IMG/VR virus record: IMGVR_UViG_2711768069_000006
Strand: one strand, 5' to 3'
Length of the DNA: 7,070 nucleotides
Source of the DNA: a virus
Taxonomy: Duplodnaviria; Heunggongvirae; Uroviricota; Caudoviricetes
The position numbers were made by a program, and so were the translations under genes. A model generated the notes under the pieces. That model saw only the letters and a list, made by a program, of their open reading frames with translations. It was not told the DNA's origin and made no database searches. Shown in pieces: positions 1 to 7,070 of this stretch. The first letter of the stretch is position 1; each line of letters begins with the position of its first letter.

Positions 1-195
1 ATACTGCCCGACGGAAATCCCGGCTTTTTGTGCAGCCAGCGCCTGGCGGCTCAGGCCCTGTTCAACAGCACTGGCGGTTTTTCTGGCGTCAGTCTCCAGT
101 CCGGAAAAATGACGCCTTACCCGGCTCATCTGCTCATCGAAACGGACCGCATCCAGACTCAGGTCAATAACAAGATCACCAACCGGCTGGGACAT
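1..195 (-). CDS. H: Tail tape-measure protein, N-terminal 65 codons (gene runs off the left edge of the window)
   Basis: Minus-strand ATG at 195..193; my translation of 195..1 is MSQPVGDLVIDLSLDAVRFDEQMSRVRRHFSGLETDARKTASAVEQGLSRQALAAQKAGISVGQY, which closely matches the lambda gpH N-terminus as I recall it. Frame is open to position 1. Start overlaps the end of the T frame (stop 176..178) by 20 nt. Not in the ORF track because it has no stop within the window. Confidence 0.9.
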   Translation of the reverse strand, partial: MSQPVGDLVIDLSLDAVRFDEQMSRVRRHFSGLETDARKTASAVEQGLSRQALAAQKAGISVGQY

Positions 196-1047
196 ATCTC
201 ACACCTCCGGAAATCCCCGCTGAAGCCATCATTAATGCGACATCATCCTCGCTGACATCCGCCACATCCGCAGACGATAAAATCTCACGCCCTCCGTCCC
301 CACCAAACCGGACGCCTCCGGCAAGTCCTGCCGCTTTCTGCATCAGCATTTTTTCCTCATCCGGCATCTCCGTCTGCGCTTCCTCACGCCGGGGGGCAAG
401 CAGACTGAAATCAGAGGGATGCATATCCGGATCGCAAAAAAACAGGCTGAGTACGGCGTACGTCAGCCCGGAAAAATGCATATCCAGCTGGGTATCGAGA
501 AAATAATGCGTACGGTAAAAACGGTGCCAGTCGGCATATTCGGTGGATGTCATCCCGGCAAGCATGGCGCGCCAGTCAGGCCTCCCCATCTCACGCGCCA
601 GTCTGAGGGCAAAATTCAGCTCGCCGTCGAAGACTTTCCCGCAGAAAAATCATCATCAGTCAGCGCGTTATTTTTCGCCACTTCAGTAATATCAGTATCC
701 GGACGAACAGCTTCGATCATCCCGGACAGGCACAACACCACGTCTTCCGCCCGGGCAATGGCATCGGCAGGCCAGGTGGTGAGCACTTCCTGCTCTATCT
801 TCATCACGGCCTCATTCATTGACGGTGACTGCGTTTTCTGTGGATGGTTATGCCACAGGGACATCGCCACCAGAAACGCGCCGGTTCTGACGAGATCTTC
901 CACGCTTACCTGCAGGTTGCCGCTGGATTCTGCCTGTTCTGCACGCCGTTTCAGGAGGGCAAGATGCTCGATACGCTGCAGCGCAGACAATTCGGAAAGC
1001 GTGACGGACACACCGTTATATTCAAATTGTTCTGTTTTCAGAAACAT
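176..1047 (-). CDS. T: Tail assembly chaperone G-T fusion made by -1 programmed frameshift (G frame 1047..~635, then T frame to 176)
   Basis: The T-frame ORF (track 176..589, containing MLAGMTSTEYADWHRFYRTHYF) stays open upstream through the slippery site at 634..640 with no stop; I translated 640..587 in that frame as GKVFDGELNFALRLAREM. The T frame is exactly -1 relative to G. T has no independent ribosome binding site context, as expected for a frameshift-only product. Confidence 0.85.
616..1047 (-). CDS. G: Tail assembly chaperone G (143 aa)
   Basis: Protein MFLKTEQFEYNGVSVTLSELSALQRIEHLALLKR... closely matches lambda gpG. I place the start at the ATG at 1047..1045, preceded by GGAGG (about 1053..1057), rather than the track start at 1119, which would overlap V by 59 nt. 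Confidence 0.9.
   Translation of the reverse strand: MFLKTEQFEYNGVSVTLSELSALQRIEHLALLKRRAEQAESSGNLQVSVEDLVRTGAFLVAMSLWHNHPQKTQSPSMNEAVMKIEQEVLTTWPADAIARAEDVVLCLSGMIEAVRPDTDITEVAKNNALTDDDFSAGKSSTAS
634..640 (-). promoter_or_regulatory. Slippery heptamer G GGA AAG (minus strand) for the G/GT -1 ribosomal frameshift
   Basis: Plus-strand ctttccc at 634..640 is GGGAAAG on the minus strand. GGA and AAG are the zero-frame Gly-Lys codons of G (protein ends ...FSAGKSSTAS), 7 codons before the G stop at 616..618. This is the same heptamer and frame arrangement as the lambda G/GT shift site. Confidence 0.85.
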
Positions 1048-1060
1048 GTATGACCTCCGT

Positions 1061-1813
1061 TTACCCTGCAGCGCCCGCTTCAGTAACGGTGACTTCAGCC
1101 ACTGCGGCGAACTGACCATTTCCGCTCACCACAGGGATCTGCACCTTACCTGTCGCCACGCCGTTTACCGTAATTGTCATATCTTTCACACTAATGGTGG
1201 CTTTCGACGGATCGGCGGAAACCGCTCTGAACGTCTTGTCTGTTGCACTTTCCGGCTCAAAAGAAACCGTCAGGGTGGTTGTTTTCCCTTTTGCCACCGT
1301 ACCGGATGTCGGCGTCACCTTAATCGCACTGACCGGCGTAATTTTGCTGCGTTCTTCCGCTACAGAAGGTTTGCCCACGTTGGTCACTTTCACCGTGCGG
1401 GTGATCACTTCTTTCGCCGTCACGGCCTTACCGATACTGCTGACCCAGCCACGAAACACATCCACCGTGCCGTTCGGAAAACGGATTTTATAGGCCCGCA
1501 CATCCCCGCTTTCAAACCAGCCTATAAGCCCTTTCTGACCTTCTTCTCCCGGTTTCCAGGCCAGCGTAAAACTGGTATCTCCTGCAGACTTCTGCCCCTG
1601 CCCGGTCGCGGTCCAGTCCGCGTCTTCATCATCCAGGTAGTTATCATCGTAGGGTTCTGCCGTCATCTCGCCCGGCGTCAGATCCTTCACCTTAGCCAGT
1701 CGCAGCCAGTCATCGTCTGACAACGGGTTTGCATAAGCATCACCCTTGCCGTTGTAAACCCACAGAGTGGTACCGGCACCTTTTACCGGCTCAAGGGGAT
1801 TTGGTGTTGCCAT
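1061..1813 (-). CDS. V: Major tail tube protein V (250 aa) with C-terminal Ig-like domain
   Basis: Near-collinear match to lambda gpV ([91 protein letters not shown]-terminal ...[29 protein letters not shown]). GAGGA Shine-Dalgarno immediately upstream, overlapping the U stop. Confidence 0.96.
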
Positions 1814-1820
1814 ATCGTCC

Positions 1821-2216
1821 TCACATCTCGTATGTAATGGAATAAGTCAGATCTGCAGAACTCCATAACGCCATATCGTCATCACGACGATACTCATAGC
1901 CCTGCGTAACCATCGTGGTAATCAGTCCTGCCAGAGCCGGGATATCGCTCATCACCGGATAAATCCGGGACTCCATCCACGAATCCAGCTCCGAATCCGG
2001 TACCTGTGCCGGTAAAAACACCTCAATATGCAGTGTGGCCCGCCAGGTATCTGCATCCAGCTCTTCACCGGTATACTCTGCATCCGTCAGATAAACCGCG
2101 ATCGCAGGAAAATCCTCTTCGTCAAAAACAACGGGGCGACCATCAAACAGCGTCGCCCCGTGTTCATGCTGCTCGAGTGCATCCAGCACTGCGGCACGAA
2201 TGTCAGTGTGTTTCAT
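1821..2216 (-). CDS. U: Tail terminator protein U (131 aa)
   Basis: [54 protein letters not shown]...[10 protein letters not shown] matches lambda gpU. ATGA start/stop overlap with Z at 2213..2216. Confidence 0.95.
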
Positions 2217-2788
2217 CGTTTTATCGCAATCCTCAGTTGTTGTTTCAGCGCGGATGCCAGTTCTTTAGGCAGGCGTTCACGCCGGATACGGTCAACATTC
2301 TCATCAAATGCCTGTTTCAGTGGGGCCGCCATCGGGATTTTCACCACCTGAATGGGAAGGCGATTACGCTTTTTCCTTCCCTTGTCGTCATTGCCCTCCT
2401 TATATCTGGCCTGGGGAAGACGTTGCATAACATGCCAGCGCCCATTATTTAATCGCTGGATAAATGCCCGCTGATAACGATGCTGACCGGCTTTGAGTAT
2501 GCTGTTCGGACGACGCCCCAGCATTCTGATCCCCAGCTTAATCACAGGGAGATCACCGCGGTTAACGATAATTCTGGCATTCGGATTTCTGACCGTCGCC
2601 CGTTTCAGTCTGGACCGTTCCTTTACCAGTTTCCGTCTCACCCTGGTTTCCCGGGCAACCTGTGATGAAGACTGATTAATCGCCGTTGTGGCCACGCGGT
2701 TAATCGTCATTGCTGAAGCCGCCGGAATGGCGTTTTTACGAACCCGGCTCAGATTATCAATCGCCTGAGCAAGCCCTTTTATCGCCAT
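2213..2788 (-). CDS. Z: Tail completion protein Z (191 aa)
   Basis: Length and sequence consistent with lambda gpZ. ATG at 2788..2786, 15 nt downstream of the FII stop; its stop overlaps the U start. Confidence 0.9.
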   Translation of the reverse strand: MAIKGLAQAIDNLSRVRKNAIPAASAMTINRVATTAINQSSSQVARETRVRRKLVKERSRLKRATVRNPNARIIVNRGDLPVIKLGIRMLGRRPNSILKAGQHRYQRAFIQRLNNGRWHVMQRLPQARYKEGNDDKGRKKRNRLPIQVVKIPMAAPLKQAFDENVDRIRRERLPKELASALKQQLRIAIKR

Positions 2789-2803
2789 AATTTCACCCTG
2801 CGT

Positions 2804-3157
2804 TTATCGTCGCCGGTTAACAGCGGGTGGTTGCCCACGGTTGAGCCAGAGATAACAGCTTCCCCCGTCATCCGGAGAAACACGATCCACCCAGAACATC
2901 TCGCCGTTAATGGTCAGCGTGTCACCACGCCGCACGGCACGCACCGTATCCGTCCGCACAAATAATGACGGGCTGCTTCCTTCAATACGGACCCCGCCAC
3001 CGGCAAAACCCAGCGACTCCGGATCGTCAAAAACCCCCTGAACTTCGCCGCCACGTTGTGCCCCCGAGGTGAACTGCGCACAGAGCCCCATCACTTCAAC
3101 AATCGTTCTGTCCACCCCGGCAAGGGCAGCATCAAAGGAATTCTCAAAATCACGCAT
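2804..3157 (-). CDS. FII: Head-tail joining protein FII (117 aa)
   Basis: MRDFENSFDAALAGVDRTIVEVMG...GVFDDPE...GVRIEGSSPSLFVRTDTVRAVRRGDTLTI...FWVDRVSPDDGGSCYLWLNRGQPPAVNRRR matches lambda gpFII, including the identical C-terminal tail. Start overlaps the FI stop by 8 nt. Confidence 0.94.
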   Translation of the reverse strand: MRDFENSFDAALAGVDRTIVEVMGLCAQFTSGAQRGGEVQGVFDDPESLGFAGGGVRIEGSSPSLFVRTDTVRAVRRGDTLTINGEMFWVDRVSPDDGGSCYLWLNRGQPPAVNRRR

Positions 3158-3569: not shown

Positions 3570-4598
3570 TTATTTCACCTGTACCACCACAAACTCATCC
3601 GGATCCGGCAGCACCATCAGCGGCGCGGACTGCGTCATGGTGAATTCACAGGACGGATCGCCCACGGTCAGCCAGTGTTTCGGGTAACGGGAAGAAGCCA
3701 CCACTCCTTCAGACAACGCCTGTGCATCCTTAATGGCTCCATAGCAACGAATCCCCTCTGCTGCCGTATTCCCCAGCACCAGCGTGCCCTCCGGCAGATA
3801 ACGTTTTTCGGTACCGTCCTCTGCCACATAAGACGTTTTCGCCACCACAATGGCCAGATCGCCGTAATACCCCTTGAAGGATACCACTGCGCCCAGATCT
3901 TTCACTGCCGTTTCGAGTTGTGAATTTGAACCGCGACGGGTATCCATTTTTTCGCGGAAAAGCTTAAAGCCATTCAGCAGACGCCAGACGGTACCGTCCA
4001 TAATGGCAATATTCACAAGACCACTGGCCTGATCACAGAAAAGGTCGATATCATATGTCGGGTCGAACGTGTCACGATCCTGTTTTGACCACTCCTTACC
4101 GCTACCTTGTATGATGTTATTCTTCGTCGATCGGCCAAAATCGACTTCAATTTTCTCGAACTGGTCTCCTTCCATCGTATATTTGCCATACAGCACGGCA
4201 TTCACCGCCTGCATTTCTTCCACCTGCACAATAGCGTGCTCTTCCTGTTTGAGGTTATCAGTGATGATACGCAGACGACGGTAGGCCGGGTCGTTCAGCT
4301 GAGCCGGATCTTCACCGGGAAGGCGCTCAACCGCCTGCTGGTAATTAAATTCGTGTTTCGGCTTGACGTAGCCCGGACGCAACACGCGGGTTTCACCACC
4401 ACGATGGCGCAGCACTTTTCCTTCAACGATCGGGGAGACATAGGCCGCCACCGGCGTTTTTCCGGTAATTTTGTCCAGCATCACCTCTTCGGTGTGGAAA
4501 TTCACCGTACGGCGGAAAAACAGCTCCAGAAATAGCGCACGGAATTTCACTTTTTGTTCGGTATAACCGAGTAACTGGCGGGTCGTAAACAATCCCAT
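3570..4598 (-). CDS. E: Major capsid protein E (342 aa)
   Basis: Collinear match to lambda gpE (YVSPIV, PGYVKPKHE, DPAYRRLRII, QVEEMQAV, KYTM, TRRGSNS, LETAVKDLG, GNT...YG, SAPLM, DPDEFV). AAGGAA Shine-Dalgarno 7 nt upstream of the ATG at 4598. Confidence 0.97.
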   Translation of the reverse strand: MGLFTTRQLLGYTEQKVKFRALFLELFFRRTVNFHTEEVMLDKITGKTPVAAYVSPIVEGKVLRHRGGETRVLRPGYVKPKHEFNYQQAVERLPGEDPAQLNDPAYRRLRIITDNLKQEEHAIVQVEEMQAVNAVLYGKYTMEGDQFEKIEVDFGRSTKNNIIQGSGKEWSKQDRDTFDPTYDIDLFCDQASGLVNIAIMDGTVWRLLNGFKLFREKMDTRRGSNSQLETAVKDLGAVVSFKGYYGDLAIVVAKTSYVAEDGTEKRYLPEGTLVLGNTAAEGIRCYGAIKDAQALSEGVVASSRYPKHWLTVGDPSCEFTMTQSAPLMVLPDPDEFVVVQVK

Positions 4599-4655: not shown

Positions 4656-5003
4656 TTACGGCAGAGCCGCGTGACTCAGGGCTGTGCCGGCAAAGGCATT
4701 TGCCTTTTTGTGTTCATCCACACTGTCAGGCCAGCGGATTGCCTCCGTCGCAAAGGTCCCCGACTTGTAATAGGTCAGCACCGTCTCTGTGCCTTCAAGC
4801 GGCAGTACCAGTATGCCAACCGCACTACCGGCTTTCTGTCCATCCCAGACCACCAGTTTCCCGGTGGCTTCATCCAGCATCAGGGGCGTCAGAGCCGGTG
4901 TTGCAGAAGAAATCCCGCTGCTGCCTGTGGCGGTATGAGCCGGATCATTACCAGCAAAAATACGTACTTCCGCACGCTGTTCAGTGATGGTTTTCGTCAC
5001 CAT
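4656..5003 (-). CDS. D: Head decoration protein D (115 aa)
   Basis: NDPAHTAT, TPLMLD, KLVVWDG, AVGIL, YKSGTF and AFAGTA motifs match lambda gpD; position between C/Nu3 and E; ATG at 5003..5001. Confidence 0.93.
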   Translation of the reverse strand: MVTKTITEQRAEVRIFAGNDPAHTATGSSGISSATPALTPLMLDEATGKLVVWDGQKAGSAVGILVLPLEGTETVLTYYKSGTFATEAIRWPDSVDEHKKANAFAGTALSHAALP

Positions 5004-5039: not shown

Positions 5040-5642
5040 TCATGGCATGGCCATGAGCATTTTCACGTCCGCATCACCGTCTGCTGACGTCTGTGACACG
5101 CCACCCCGCACCGCTGCCGGTGAATGATTCGCCATGAAATGTTCAAACAGGGCGGTTGTGGATGCAGAGACCGGTTCGGCCTTACCTGATCCCGCAGCCA
5201 GCACAGCCCGGGCGTTCTCCACGGTCATTCCCGGGCAGGCAGCCAGTTTTTCAGCCTGCGCTTCTGCCCCTTTTGCCTCATCCAGGGCCATGATCTGATC
5301 ACGAAGTGAGGGCCCGGCATCCGCCAGTGGTGCAGCCGCCAGGATCGGGCGGGCTTTTTCCACCGTCATCTCCGGCATCGCCGCCAGCGTTGCCGCCAGT
5401 TGTTCACGACCGTTCGCTTCTTCACACGCCATAATGCGATCGGCTTCACTCTGCGCGGATGCCACCGGCTGCTGCGGTGCCGCCGCGGCCAGAATCGCCC
5501 GGGCCTGTTCAACGCTCATGCCCTGTTGCCCTGCCAGCATCGTGGCAAGCTGTTCACGTCCTTTCGCTTCCTGACACGTCAGGATCCCCATCACTCGCTG
5601 GTTCTCCTGCACTGCGGCTTCCGTTGCAGTTAATTGCGGCAT
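5040..5642 (-). CDS. Nu3: Nu3-like scaffolding protein, translated from a nested in-frame start inside C (200 aa)
   Basis: Internal ATG at 5642..5640 preceded by GAGGAGG (5653..5647); product begins MPQLTATEAAVQENQRVMGILTCQEAKGRE... The product length of 200 aa is essentially the same as lambda Nu3, which is likewise nested in-frame in the 3' part of C. Confidence 0.65.
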   Translation of the reverse strand: MPQLTATEAAVQENQRVMGILTCQEAKGREQLATMLAGQQGMSVEQARAILAAAAPQQPVASAQSEADRIMACEEANGREQLAATLAAMPEMTVEKARPILAAAPLADAGPSLRDQIMALDEAKGAEAQAEKLAACPGMTVENARAVLAAGSGKAEPVSASTTALFEHFMANHSPAAVRGGVSQTSADGDADVKMLMAMP

Positions 5643-6460
5643 AGTGCCTCCTCTGACATTACTGTTCAGCGCCGTGGCCATCACACTGATGGCATCCGAC
5701 GCATTGATTAATTCATCCGCCAGCCCGGCCTCAATGCCGGACTGACCTTCAAAAACGGCGGCCTCTGTTCCCGTGACGGCATCAACAGACAGACCGGTAA
5801 ACATGGCCACTTTTTCGGCAAACATCCGGCGCGCCGCATCAATGCGCTGCTGCATGTCCTGGCGAACCTCTGCCGGTAAGGCTTCAAACTGATTGCCATC
5901 CACCTTGTGCGCCCCTGAGTAAATCAGCGTGATATCCACACCGGCCTGCGCCAGATGACCGGCATAGCTGACATGGCTCATCATCACGCCAATGGAGCCG
6001 ATACGGGATGTCTGGGTAACCAGCCGTCGGGAGCAGGCCGACGCCAGCAGCATGGCTGCAGAACAGGCCGTGTCATTGCACAGTGCCCAGACCGGCTTCT
6101 GCTGACGGAGGCGGTAAATCATGTCAGCGCAGTCAAACGCGCCGGCGGCCTGCCCGCCCGGACTGTCAATGTCCAGCAGTACGCCCCGCACCTGGCTATC
6201 CGCCATTGCCTGCTGAAGACAGGCGACAATGCCGTCATAGCCTGTCATTCCGGAAAATGGCCGCATACCCCCCAGCCGGTGCACCAGCGTGCCGGTCACC
6301 GGCAGTACAGCAATACCGTTCACCACCCATGTGGTACCGAAAGACTTGCTGCCCCCATCTCGCGCCCGAGCGCGCAAAAGAAAACCCGCGCATAGGCGGG
6401 CTCCAGAAGCAGCGGTTCATTGAATGCTGCGGCAATAATGTGTGAAAGATTACGTCTCAC
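5040..6460 (-). CDS. C: Head maturation protease / minor capsid protein C; reading frame is interrupted near the 5' end (frameshift or error at about 6330..6365)
   Basis: The main ORF (5040..6416 in its frame) encodes VVNGIAVLPVTGTLV..., with strong resemblance to lambda gpC through the protease and scaffold regions. It has no credible start in its own frame: no ATG or GTG before the conserved region, and the track start is a TTG with no Shine-Dalgarno. The lambda-like N-terminus (V)RRNLSHIIAAAFNEPLLLEPAYARVFFCALG is in the other frame (6460..6323, stop at 6320..6322), starting at a GTG at 6460 behind GAGGAG and overlapping the B stop by 11 nt. Confidence 0.85.
5172..5600 (-). repeat. Three tandem diverged repeats of about 141-150 bp (about 48 aa) within the C/Nu3 scaffold region
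   Basis: Protein repeats: RVMGILTCQEAKGREQLATMLAGQQGMSVEQARAILAAAAP / RIMACEEANGREQLAATLAAMPEMTVEKARPILAAAP / IMALDEAKGAEAQAEKLAACPGMTVENARAVLAAG. At DNA level, compare the segments starting at about 5196, 5337 and 5487 (for example gccaggatcgggcgggctttttccaccgtcat versus gccagaatcgcccgggcctgttcaacgctcat). Confidence 0.75.
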
Positions 6461-7070
6461 GTGGTGTTGTCTCCTCTTCCGGCCTGCGACTCTCCGCTAT
6501 CTGCTGCTGATACGCCTGCGCTATCCACACCGGACGTGAGAGTCCGGCTTTTTCCCGCTCTGCAGATTCCCTGACCTGCTGGCGGAAAATGTCCTGATAA
6601 TCCTCGCCCATCAGCGCCAGCTCTTTCTCATACGTGCTCAGTCCGGCCTCAATGCGCATCACCGATTCCTGAACCTCCTTGAGCCCGTCAATGGCCATTC
6701 TTCCGGCACCAATCCACTCTGCCCGTGACCAGGCTGATCGCGCCTGATAAAAATCAAAACGCGCCCGTGGCGGACGGATAATCCCCCGAAGAAGTGCCTC
6801 TTCCAGCCAGCAGGAAAACATCTGCGTGGCCAGCCGGGCCGCAATAAATTTTCGCCGCCCCATAAAATAGCGCCACGACTCATTGGCAGAGGCCCTGGCA
6901 CTTGAATAACTGACCTTCGAGTAATCACGGGACAACTGTTCGTAGGAAACGCCAAGACCGGCGGCGATATACCGCAGCAGCGCCTGTTCAAGCGCCGAAA
7001 ATCCATTGTCTGAATCCTGCGCAGTCTGTAGTTTCAGATCATCCCCGGGGAAAAGGTGCGGAATTTTGAC
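6450..7070 (-). CDS. B: Portal protein B, C-terminal 206 codons (gene continues beyond the right edge)
   Basis: The frame is open from the window edge at 7070 down to the TAA at 6450..6452. My translation of 7070..6936 (VKIPHLFPGDDLKLQTAQDSDNGFSALEQALLRYIAAGLGVSYEQ) continues into the track ORF (...SRDYSKVSYSSARASANESWRYFMGRRKF...MAIDGLKEVQESVMRIEAGLSTYEKE...), matching the lambda gpB C-terminus. The track start at 6935 is a TTG artefact, not a real start. Confidence 0.93.
   Translation of the reverse strand, partial: VKIPHLFPGDDLKLQTAQDSDNGFSALEQALLRYIAAGLGVSYEQLSRDYSKVSYSSARASANESWRYFMGRRKFIAARLATQMFSCWLEEALLRGIIRPPRARFDFYQARSAWSRAEWIGAGRMAIDGLKEVQESVMRIEAGLSTYEKELALMGEDYQDIFRQQVRESAEREKAGLSRPVWIAQAYQQQIAESRRPEEETTPRET

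What the first reader, a model, noticed from the sequence alone, without database searches (positions are those of the whole stretch)
6320..6460. Head protease gene C is split between two reading frames, with a C5 homopolymer at the likely break
The conserved body of C (from VVNGIAVLPVTG onward, stop at 5040) has no plausible initiation codon or ribosome binding site in its own frame. A lambda-like N-terminus (RRNLSHIIAAAFNEPLLLEPAYARVFFCALG) is encoded in a different frame, starting at a GTG at 6460 behind GAGGAG and ending at a TGA at 6320..6322. Both frames are open across 6323..6416, and the only homopolymer where the lambda-like alignment changes frame is ccccc at 6352..6356. Adding one base there gives a continuous ORF ...FFCALGREMGGSKSFGTTWVVNGIAVLP.... 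This is either a homopolymer-length assembly error, or a genuine frameshift (or a 3n+/-1 deletion) that would inactivate the protease and imply a defective prophage. A programmed shift is less likely, since there is no canonical slippery heptamer at the junction.
Basis: partly seen in the sequence, partly recalled or inferred. Interest (0 to 1): 0.55.

Follow-up and report, generated by a model that had tools for sequence, protein, structure and literature searches.

The report
Prophage head protease broken by deletion
The head-maturation protease gene of a phage-21/lambda-like prophage in this E. coli draft contig is split because 85 bases are missing compared with every relative, not because of a one-base homopolymer error; this is ordinary prophage decay or possibly an assembly fault.

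Summary
The split is real in the sequence. On the minus strand, a 46-codon ORF (6460..6320) carries the conserved N-terminus of lambda gpC / phage 21 gp5. The S49 protease plus Nu3 scaffold body (to the stop at 5040) lies in the -1 frame.

The break is not at the C5/G5 run (6352..6356). Intact relatives have the same G5 and read on in the upstream frame. The cause is a net 85-bp (3x28+1) deletion at the junction 6330|6329. It removes codons 44-73 of a 501-codon gene.

The two closest E. coli prophages are 99.9% identical over all 7070 bases, and this is their only indel. All relatives examined have one continuous C gene, including phage 21 and nine other contigs that break at the same portal position. 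The junction sequence was not found in 5,426 complete E. coli genomes, GTDB species representatives, JGI metagenomes or IMG/VR.

The window is the whole contig CYFY01000109.1 of draft assembly GCA_001284365.1.

Most likely this is a recent inactivating deletion (a pseudogene in a defective prophage). A short-read assembly artefact cannot be excluded without the reads. A programmed frameshift and a homopolymer error are rejected. Weak reinitiation at the GTGA stop/start overlap is possible but would give a protease lacking a conserved N-terminal segment. Interest is low.

The parts
6450..7070 (-). 3' part of the portal gene (lambda B / phage 21 gene 4 homologue), cut by the contig end; stop TAA at 6452..6450
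   Evidence: ORF and translation. PF05136 Phage_portal_2 on the called gene. Annotated 'phage portal protein' in relatives.
6471..6476 (-). Shine-Dalgarno GAGGAG of gene C
   Evidence: Sequence. Predicted pairing with the 16S 3' tail is -9.1 kcal/mol. The same bases are annotated as the RBS in phage 21, OL657228.
6320..6460 (-). 5' fragment of gene C: GTG start, 43 native codons (MRRNLSHIIAAAFNEPLLLEPAYARVFFCALGREMGAASLSVP), then three out-of-frame codons (HGW) and TGA
   Evidence: Identical to residues 1-43 of the intact 501-aa protein. 69% identity to lambda gpC residues 6-44, E = 4e-18.
6352..6356 (.).
   Evidence: The run is identical in the window and in intact relatives.
6329..6330 (-). 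Deletion junction. 85 bases present in all relatives (ACAGCAGGTACAG...CCCGTGTTTAC, codons 44-73) are missing between 6330 and 6329. The T at 6329 is A or C in relatives.
   Evidence: Alignments to O145:H28 RM12761, phage 21, Z1323HEC0393, F8704-2 and a Logan contig.
5040..6326 (-). Body of gene C (residues 74-501 of the intact protein): complete S49 (SppA-like) protease fold plus the C-terminal Nu3 scaffold domain, now in the -1 frame relative to the start
   Evidence: PF01343 Peptidase_S49 at 120 bits (cut-off 24.9). The alignment to B. subtilis SppA begins at GIAVLPV. The serine aligned to lambda Ser166 is present. 100% identical to the intact relative over the aligned rows.
6320..6323 (-). 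GTGA overlap: the stop TGA (6322..6320) of the 46-codon ORF overlaps an in-frame GTG (6323..6321) of the body; a second in-frame GTG lies at 6326..6324. This is a possible but weak reinitiation site. The public annotation CTZ88377.1 starts here.
   Evidence: Sequence. Candidate starts. SD pairing only at background level. Exact 427-aa and 428-aa products are in the public collection.
5040..5642 (-). Nested scaffold gene (lambda Nu3 / phage 21 gene 6 homologue), in frame with the C body, with its own ATG at 5642 and GAGGAGG at 5653..5647; intact
   Evidence: Corresponds to the annotated scaffolding CDS and RBS of phage 21. SD pairing is -12.0 kcal/mol. No indel against relatives.

Best explanation
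The window is a complete 7,070-bp contig from an E. coli draft genome. It carries the head and proximal tail genes of a phage-21/lambda-type prophage on the minus strand.

The head-maturation protease/scaffold gene C (lambda gpC, phage 21 gp5; peptidase family S49) has lost a net 85 bp, which is 3n+1. The lost stretch lies in the poorly conserved linker between the conserved N-terminal segment and the first strand of the protease fold.

Expected translation:
- Translation from the normal GTG/GAGGAG start yields 43 native residues, three wrong ones and a stop.
- The protease fold is left without a proper start.
- The nested Nu3 scaffold gene, with its own strong ribosome binding site, and all downstream genes in the window are unaffected.

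C is essential for lambda growth, so the prophage as written should be unable to mature heads. That makes it a defective prophage carrying a young pseudogene.

Shown: the deletion, its position, its uniqueness, and the intactness of the rest of the window. Inferred: that the deletion is biological rather than an assembly fault, and that it abolishes function.
For: 1. The split and its coordinates are established.
2. The two closest prophages (E. coli Z1323HEC0393 and O39:NM F8704-2) are 99.9% identical over all 7,070 bases, with 8 and 10 substitutions. The 85-bp gap is the only indel.
3. Phage 21, the O145:H28 prophage and a Logan contig place the gap in the same position and have the same G5 run.
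4. In relatives the gene is a single 1,506-nt CDS starting at the GTG that corresponds to window 6460.
5. Nine other public contigs that break at the same point in the portal gene all read C continuously from that GTG.
6. The junction was not found in four collections: no full-identity one-piece hit in 5,426 complete E. coli genomes, and zero exact matches in GTDB representatives, JGI metagenomes and IMG/VR.
7. Among close relatives, length variation (451-551 aa) lies only in the C-terminal Nu3 repeats, never in the N-terminal 75 residues.
8. Lambda, Chi-like, FelixO1-like and other phage S49 proteases all have an N-terminal segment of 50-73 aa with an NxP(L/A)(L/I) motif. A product starting at VVNG would therefore lack a conserved element.
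9. In-frame starts after the break have no Shine-Dalgarno pairing above background.
10. C is scored as essential in lambda (table in PMC10695390).
11. The window is contig CYFY01000109.1 of GCA_001284365.1. The depositor's annotation simply starts the protein at the GTG after the break.
Against: - No reads are available, so a misassembly in this short-read draft cannot be excluded. The region is a multi-copy prophage repeat, since many E. coli genomes carry 2-9 related copies.
- The junction shows no clean deletion signature. There is no flanking direct repeat longer than 3 nt and no unusual DNA fold. One base at the junction (T at 6329) does not match any relative, so the event needs either a deletion plus a substitution, an 86-bp deletion plus a 1-nt insertion, or two deletions of 53 and 32 bp.
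- Only one contig carries it, so there is no independent replicate.
- The stop of the short ORF overlaps an in-frame GTG (GTGA), so some reinitiation giving a protease with the complete S49 fold is conceivable. gpC is needed only in low copy number (my own recollection, not checked here).
- Loss of function was not tested.
Confidence: 0.7

Rival explanations
1. Assembly artefact. The isolate's prophage has an intact C gene, and the 85 bases were lost when the short-read draft was assembled or gap-closed in a region repeated among several lambdoid prophages.
For: - The window is a small whole contig of a draft assembly.
- Its end falls at a point in the portal gene where at least nine other assemblies also break, which marks a repeat boundary.
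- E. coli genomes commonly hold several related copies: median 2 places, up to 9.
- The junction is unique in all collections searched.
- The junction has an unmatched base and no clear microhomology.
- The Prokka-style product name suggests an automated high-throughput pipeline (inference from my own knowledge).
Against: - De Bruijn contigs normally contain only k-mers present in reads, so a novel junction usually needs read support (general knowledge).
- The flanks on both sides match relatives perfectly and there are no Ns.
- Real inactivating mutations in this linker do occur. An unrelated E. coli run (SRR31383025) carries an independent CGA-to-TGA nonsense codon 19 codons after this break.
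Confidence: 0.22
2. The gene still functions as two pieces. Ribosomes that terminate at TGA 6322..6320 reinitiate at the overlapping GTG (6323 or 6326). They make a 427/428-aa protease-scaffold protein that has the complete S49 fold but lacks residues 1-73. The 46-aa peptide may or may not act in trans, and the product supplies enough protease for head maturation.
For: - GTGA stop/start overlap.
- The SppA-like fold begins at GIAVLPV, immediately after the break.
- The serine aligned to lambda Ser166 is retained.
- Only a few gpC molecules are needed per prohead (my own recollection, not checked here).
Against: - There is no Shine-Dalgarno pairing above background before either GTG.
- GTG starts are weak.
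- The missing N-terminal segment is conserved from lambda to Chi-like and FelixO1-like phages and is invariant in length in close relatives.
- The architecture occurs in a single contig, with 99.9%-identical intact relatives, so there has been no time for selection.
- A structure prediction meant to show how the N-terminus packs failed, with mean pLDDT 42.
Confidence: 0.05
3. One-base homopolymer miscall at the C5 run 6352..6356.
For: Adding one base there does join the two frames arithmetically.
Against: - All intact relatives have exactly five bases there and continue in the upstream frame for another 8 codons shared with the window.
- The lambda alignment of the upstream frame also runs past the homopolymer, to residue 41.
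- The window lacks 85 bases elsewhere.
Confidence: 0.01
4. Programmed -1 ribosomal frameshift that joins the two frames.
For: The body is in the -1 frame relative to the start, and the two frames overlap by 94 nt.
Against: - No X XXY YYZ heptamer lies in the overlap.
- No relative has a split gene.
- The overlap exists only because of the deletion.
Confidence: 0.01

Closest known systems
Phage 21 gene 5/6 (head-tail preconnector protease / scaffold; OL657228, M81255) and its E. coli prophage alleles annotated 'S49 family peptidase' (e.g. WP_053899249.1)
   Same: - About 99% nucleotide identity across the portal-C junction, and 99.9% to the closest prophages over the whole window.
- Same GTG start and RBS.
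- Same nested scaffold start.
- Same gene order: portal, C/Nu3, D, E, FI, FII, Z, U, V, G, T.
   Different: The window lacks 85 bp (codons 44-73), so the 501-codon ORF is broken into 46 codons plus an out-of-frame body.
Bacteriophage lambda gpC / Nu3 (NP_040584, NP_040585)
   Same: - N-terminal segment 69% identical.
- Protease body 53% identical, including the serine aligned to Ser166.
- Nested Nu3 architecture.
- Essential for growth.
   Different: - The linker sequence between the N-terminal segment and the fold is divergent.
- The Nu3 region has a different repeat content.
- Lambda's gene is intact.
Bacterial signal peptide peptidase SppA (PDB 3RST, 4KWB; family S49)
   Same: The fold-level sequence match covers residues 77-290 of the intact protein (E = 1e-15). 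It shows that the whole protease fold lies downstream of the break.
   Different: SppA has no phage N-terminal segment or scaffold domain, and it is a membrane-associated host protein.
Gene decay in cryptic/defective lambdoid prophages of E. coli
   Same: A single inactivating lesion in an essential morphogenesis gene of an otherwise intact-looking late operon. An independent nonsense allele in the same linker occurs in another E. coli.
   Different: Nothing distinctive. The rest of the prophage lies outside the contig and could not be examined.

Membership tests
Lambda gpC / phage 21 gp5-type prohead protease-scaffold (Peptidase S49) | Peptidase_S49 domain above Pfam's gathering score | tested here: met
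   PF01343 scores 120.1 bits against a cut-off of 24.9 on the downstream body. SppA structures match at E = 1e-15.
Lambda gpC / phage 21 gp5-type prohead protease-scaffold (Peptidase S49) | Nucleophile serine equivalent to lambda Ser166 / SppA active-site serine | tested here: met
   Ser106 of the 445-aa ORF aligns with lambda residue 166 within ND..CSA..LLASA and with the serine in the AASGG motif of B. subtilis SppA. The identity of lambda Ser166 as the nucleophile is from my own recollection of Medina et al. 2010, which could not be read here.
Lambda gpC / phage 21 gp5-type prohead protease-scaffold (Peptidase S49) | Gene sits between the portal gene and the decoration/major capsid genes, overlapping the portal stop | tested here: met
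   The GTG at 6460 overlaps the portal stop at 6452..6450. D (4656..5003) and E (3570..4598) follow.
Lambda gpC / phage 21 gp5-type prohead protease-scaffold (Peptidase S49) | Nested in-frame scaffold (Nu3) start with its own RBS | tested here: met
   ATG at 5642 behind GAGGAGG (-12.0 kcal/mol). It corresponds to the annotated phage 21 scaffold CDS and RBS and to lambda nu3.
Lambda gpC / phage 21 gp5-type prohead protease-scaffold (Peptidase S49) | One continuous reading frame from the conserved N-terminal segment through the protease fold | tested here: not met
   The frame is broken at 6330|6329 by a net 85-bp deletion. The locus is therefore a pseudogene of this family, not an intact member.
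Programmed -1 ribosomal frameshift | Slippery heptamer X XXY YYZ in the zero frame within the overlap | tested here: not met
   None found in 6460..6320.
Programmed -1 ribosomal frameshift | Two-frame architecture conserved among relatives | tested here: not met
   All relatives examined encode a single ORF.
Homopolymer-length sequencing error | The window differs from relatives by +/-1 base inside the homopolymer | tested here: not met
   The G5 run is identical in the window and in intact relatives.
Genuine genomic deletion (pseudogene) as opposed to an assembly artefact | Sequencing reads or an amplicon spanning the novel junction | not testable with these tools
   No reads are available. 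The junction was found only in this contig.

The most novel reading that the evidence does not exclude
The deletion is real and the prophage is still viable. Termination at TGA 6322..6320 is coupled to reinitiation at the overlapping GTG, giving a protease-scaffold protein without residues 1-73. This would show that the N-terminal segment conserved from lambda to Chi-like and FelixO1-like phages is dispensable, or can act in trans as a 46-aa peptide.
Probability: 0.04. Interest if true: 0.3.

Novelty: already known. Interest (0 to 1): 0.08.

Why it matters
It matters little beyond annotation.
- The locus should be labelled as a frameshifted pseudogene of the S49 head protease. The public record instead presents a 427-aa protein starting at an internal GTG.
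- The prophage should be treated as probably defective for particle formation.
- A frame break near a homopolymer need not be a homopolymer error. Alignment to close relatives moved the lesion about 25 bases and changed its nature from 1 base to 85 bases.
- If reads showed it to be an artefact, it would be a small example of a deletion introduced in multi-copy prophage regions of short-read drafts.

Tried and rejected
1. Homopolymer error at 6352..6356: rejected by the alignments.
2. Programmed frameshift: no slippery heptamer and no conservation of the split.
3. Search for a second occurrence of the junction: no full-identity hit in complete E. coli genomes, and zero exact matches in GTDB representatives, JGI metagenomes and IMG/VR.
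   - The exact 46-aa and 445-aa products are not in the 15-billion-protein collection. The 427-aa product traces to this contig alone.
   - The identical 428-aa product comes from a different allele with a nonsense codon, not the deletion.
4. Deletion mechanism: there are no flanking direct repeats longer than 3 nt. The deleted stretch folds no better than shuffles (z = 0.09). The single-event and two-event models could not be told apart.
5. Structure prediction of the intact 501-aa relative from a shallow 12-sequence alignment, to see how the N-terminal segment packs: mean pLDDT 42, unusable, and no fold search was run.
6. Literature on gpC residues:
   - Medina et al. 2010 is not held.
   - A full-text search returned irrelevant papers.
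7. Homologues that naturally lack the N-terminal segment: lambda, FelixO1-like, Chi-like, Aeromonas and Xanthomonas phage proteases all have 50-73 residues before the fold.

Full report
**What the window is.** The 7,070 bases are the complete contig CYFY01000109.1 of the E. coli draft assembly GCA_001284365.1, in reverse orientation. The minus strand carries a phage-21/lambda-type late operon:
- the 3' part of the portal gene (7070..6450)
- C/Nu3 (6460..5040)
- D (5003..4656)
- E (4598..3570)
- FI, FII, Z, U and V
- G (1047..616) and T (589..176)

These assignments rest. Across the portal-C junction, nucleotide identity to phage 21 is about 99%. Two E. coli prophages, in strains Z1323HEC0393 and O39:NM F8704-2, match the whole window at 99.9%.

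**Checking the observation.**
- A GTG at 6460, 10 nt behind GAGGAG (6476..6471), opens a 46-codon ORF that ends at TGA 6322..6320.
- This GTG is the annotated start of the intact 'S49 family peptidase' in RefSeq genomes and of the capsid protease/scaffold gene in phage 21. The same bases are annotated there as the ribosome binding site.
- The 46-aa product matches lambda gpC residues 6-44 at 69% identity, E = 4e-18.
- The body from VVNGIAVLPVTG to the stop at 5040 is in the -1 frame and matches lambda gpC at E = 5e-120.
- Both frames are open over 6323..6416.

So the split is real and far beyond chance.

**Where the break is.** Alignment of the window with intact genes gives the same answer for the O145:H28 prophage, phage 21, the two 99.9% relatives and a Logan contig.
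- The window and the intact genes are identical through ...GAGATGGGGGCAGCAAGTCTTTCGGTACCACA.
- Then 85 bases of the intact gene are absent (ACAGCAGGTACAG...CCCGTGTTTAC).
- The sequences rejoin at GGGTGGTGAACGG.
- The junction lies between window positions 6330 and 6329.
- The intact protein reads ...GREMGAASLSVPQQQVQFDAPGMLAETDEYMAGGKRPARVYRVVNGIAVLP... The window reads ...GREMGAASLSVPHGW*.

Even the lambda alignment of the upstream frame runs past the homopolymer, to residue 41.

Over the full 7,070 bases the two closest relatives differ by only 8 and 10 substitutions, and this is the sole indel.

**Nature of the event.** The base at 6329 (T) matches no relative; they have A or C. The change can be written in three ways:
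- an 85-bp deletion plus an adjacent substitution
- an 86-bp deletion between two ACA triplets plus a 1-nt insertion
- two deletions of 53 bp (ACA microhomology) and 32 bp (GG microhomology) with no substitution

These readings come from inspecting the alignment. No direct repeat longer than 3 nt flanks the deletion. The deleted stretch has no unusual single-strand fold (z = 0.09). The mechanism of the deletion is unresolved.

**Uniqueness.**
- A junction-spanning 81-nt query has no full-identity, one-piece match in 5,426 complete E. coli genomes. The top hits all span 166 nt in two pieces.
- Exact junction patterns are absent from GTDB species representatives, JGI metagenome contigs and IMG/VR.
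- Nine other public contigs break at exactly the same place in the portal gene, which marks an assembly repeat boundary. All of them read C continuously from the GTG.
- The exact 427-aa product is in the public protein collection and traces to this contig alone (CTZ88377.1, called from the GTG at 6323).
- The identical 428-aa product (CTW83686.1 and a Logan contig from SRR31383025) comes from a different allele. That allele keeps the 85 bases but has a CGA-to-TGA nonsense codon at residue 67.

**Consequence for the protein.**
- Pfam places the S49 domain wholly downstream of the break, at 120 bits.
- The alignment to solved SppA structures starts at GIAVLPV, just after the break.
- The serine that aligns with lambda Ser166 is retained.
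- The lost segment (residues 44-73) is the linker that differs most between lambda and phage 21.

The frameshift separates the fold from its start. In-frame GTGs at 6326 and 6323 have only background-level Shine-Dalgarno pairing: -3.0 and -3.7 kcal/mol, against a window mean of -3.6, -9.1 for the true start and -12.0 for Nu3. An ATG at 6266 has a G-rich stretch directly abutting it, and it would remove the first strand of the fold.

The GTG at 6323..6321 overlaps the TGA of the short ORF (GTGA). Termination-reinitiation at low efficiency is therefore conceivable, but the product would lack residues 1-73.

That N-terminal segment is not a lambda peculiarity.
- Proteases from Chi-like iEPS5, Aeromonas AhMtk13b, Xanthomonas Seregon and FelixO1-like Alf5 all carry 50-73 residues before the fold, with a shared NxP(L/A)(L/I) motif.
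- Among close relatives, all length variation (451-551 aa) lies in the C-terminal Nu3 repeat modules. None lies in the first 75 residues.

Lambda C is scored as essential (PMC10695390). It takes part with B and Nu3 in the initiator of head assembly (PMC3224144).

The nested scaffold gene (ATG 5642, GAGGAGG 5653..5647) and all other genes in the window have no indel relative to intact relatives.

**Best explanation and rivals.**
- Pseudogene, about 0.7. I consider it near certain that the frame split in this sequence is caused by the 85-bp loss. It is most likely a genuine, recent inactivating deletion that leaves the prophage defective in head maturation.
- Assembly artefact, about 0.22. This is the main rival. 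The contig is a short piece of a short-read draft in a region that is multi-copy in many E. coli (median 2, up to 9 places per genome). The junction is unique and slightly untidy. It cannot be tested without reads.
- Functional truncated or split protease through GTGA coupling, about 0.05. It is possible but disfavoured by the weak start context and the conserved missing segment.
- Homopolymer miscall and programmed -1 frameshift: both rejected. The run is identical in intact genes, there is no X XXY YYZ heptamer, and no relative is split.

**Comparison with the known, and novelty.** The locus is a frameshifted allele of the phage 21 gene 5/6, lambda C/Nu3 family.
- It meets the family's domain, active-site-serine, synteny and nested-scaffold criteria.
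- It fails the criterion of one continuous reading frame, so it is a pseudogene of that family.

Mutational decay of morphogenesis genes in lambdoid prophages is commonplace, so nothing here is new in kind. Interest is low. The practical value is a corrected annotation, and the point that the lesion is 85 bases at 6330|6329 rather than one base at 6352..6356.

**What did not work.**
- An AlphaFold2 model of the intact relative from a shallow alignment was unusable, with mean pLDDT 42.
- Medina et al. 2010 on gpC could not be read.

Noticed in passing
window 634..640 (minus strand), with G at 1047..616 and T at 589..176: The canonical lambda G/GT programmed -1 frameshift site is present. GGGAAAG lies in the G GGA AAG register just before the G stop (...DDDFSAGKSSTAS*). 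The -1 frame is open from the heptamer into T (GKVFDGELNFALRLAREMGRPDW...).
   Followed up: yes
L005 (Logan SRR31383025 contig 83) 4239..4458; corresponds to the stretch deleted from the window: A different E. coli prophage keeps the 85 bases but has a CGA-to-TGA nonsense codon at residue 67 of C, in the same linker. It gives a 66-aa ORF followed by a 428-aa call from the GTG. This is an independent inactivation of the same gene.
   Followed up: partly
window 5040..5642 (Nu3 domain) and relatives P0017, P0047, P0109, P0125, P0123: The scaffold part of C/Nu3 is built of repeated modules of about 40 aa (..EA.GREQLA..LA..PGMTVE.AR.ILAA..). Their copy number varies among close relatives, giving proteins of 451 to 551 aa. 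The window has the 501-aa-type arrangement.
   Followed up: partly
window 7070 (contig end inside the portal gene): At least nine unrelated public assemblies (Logan contigs L012-L020) break at exactly the same base of the portal gene. This indicates a sharp boundary between shared and divergent sequence among co-resident lambdoid prophages, and so mosaicism within the portal gene.
   Followed up: partly
window 6323..5040; public record CTZ88377.1: The deposited annotation presents the broken gene as a 427-aa 'phage head-tail preconnector protein' starting at an internal GTG, with no pseudogene flag. The 46-codon 5' fragment is not annotated.
   Followed up: yes
L004 (E. coli O39:NM F8704-2) 474..2809: In one of the two closest relatives, an IS66-family element (ISEc22) is inserted at the terminase small subunit gene of the otherwise near-identical prophage. 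That copy may be defective by a different route.
   Followed up: no
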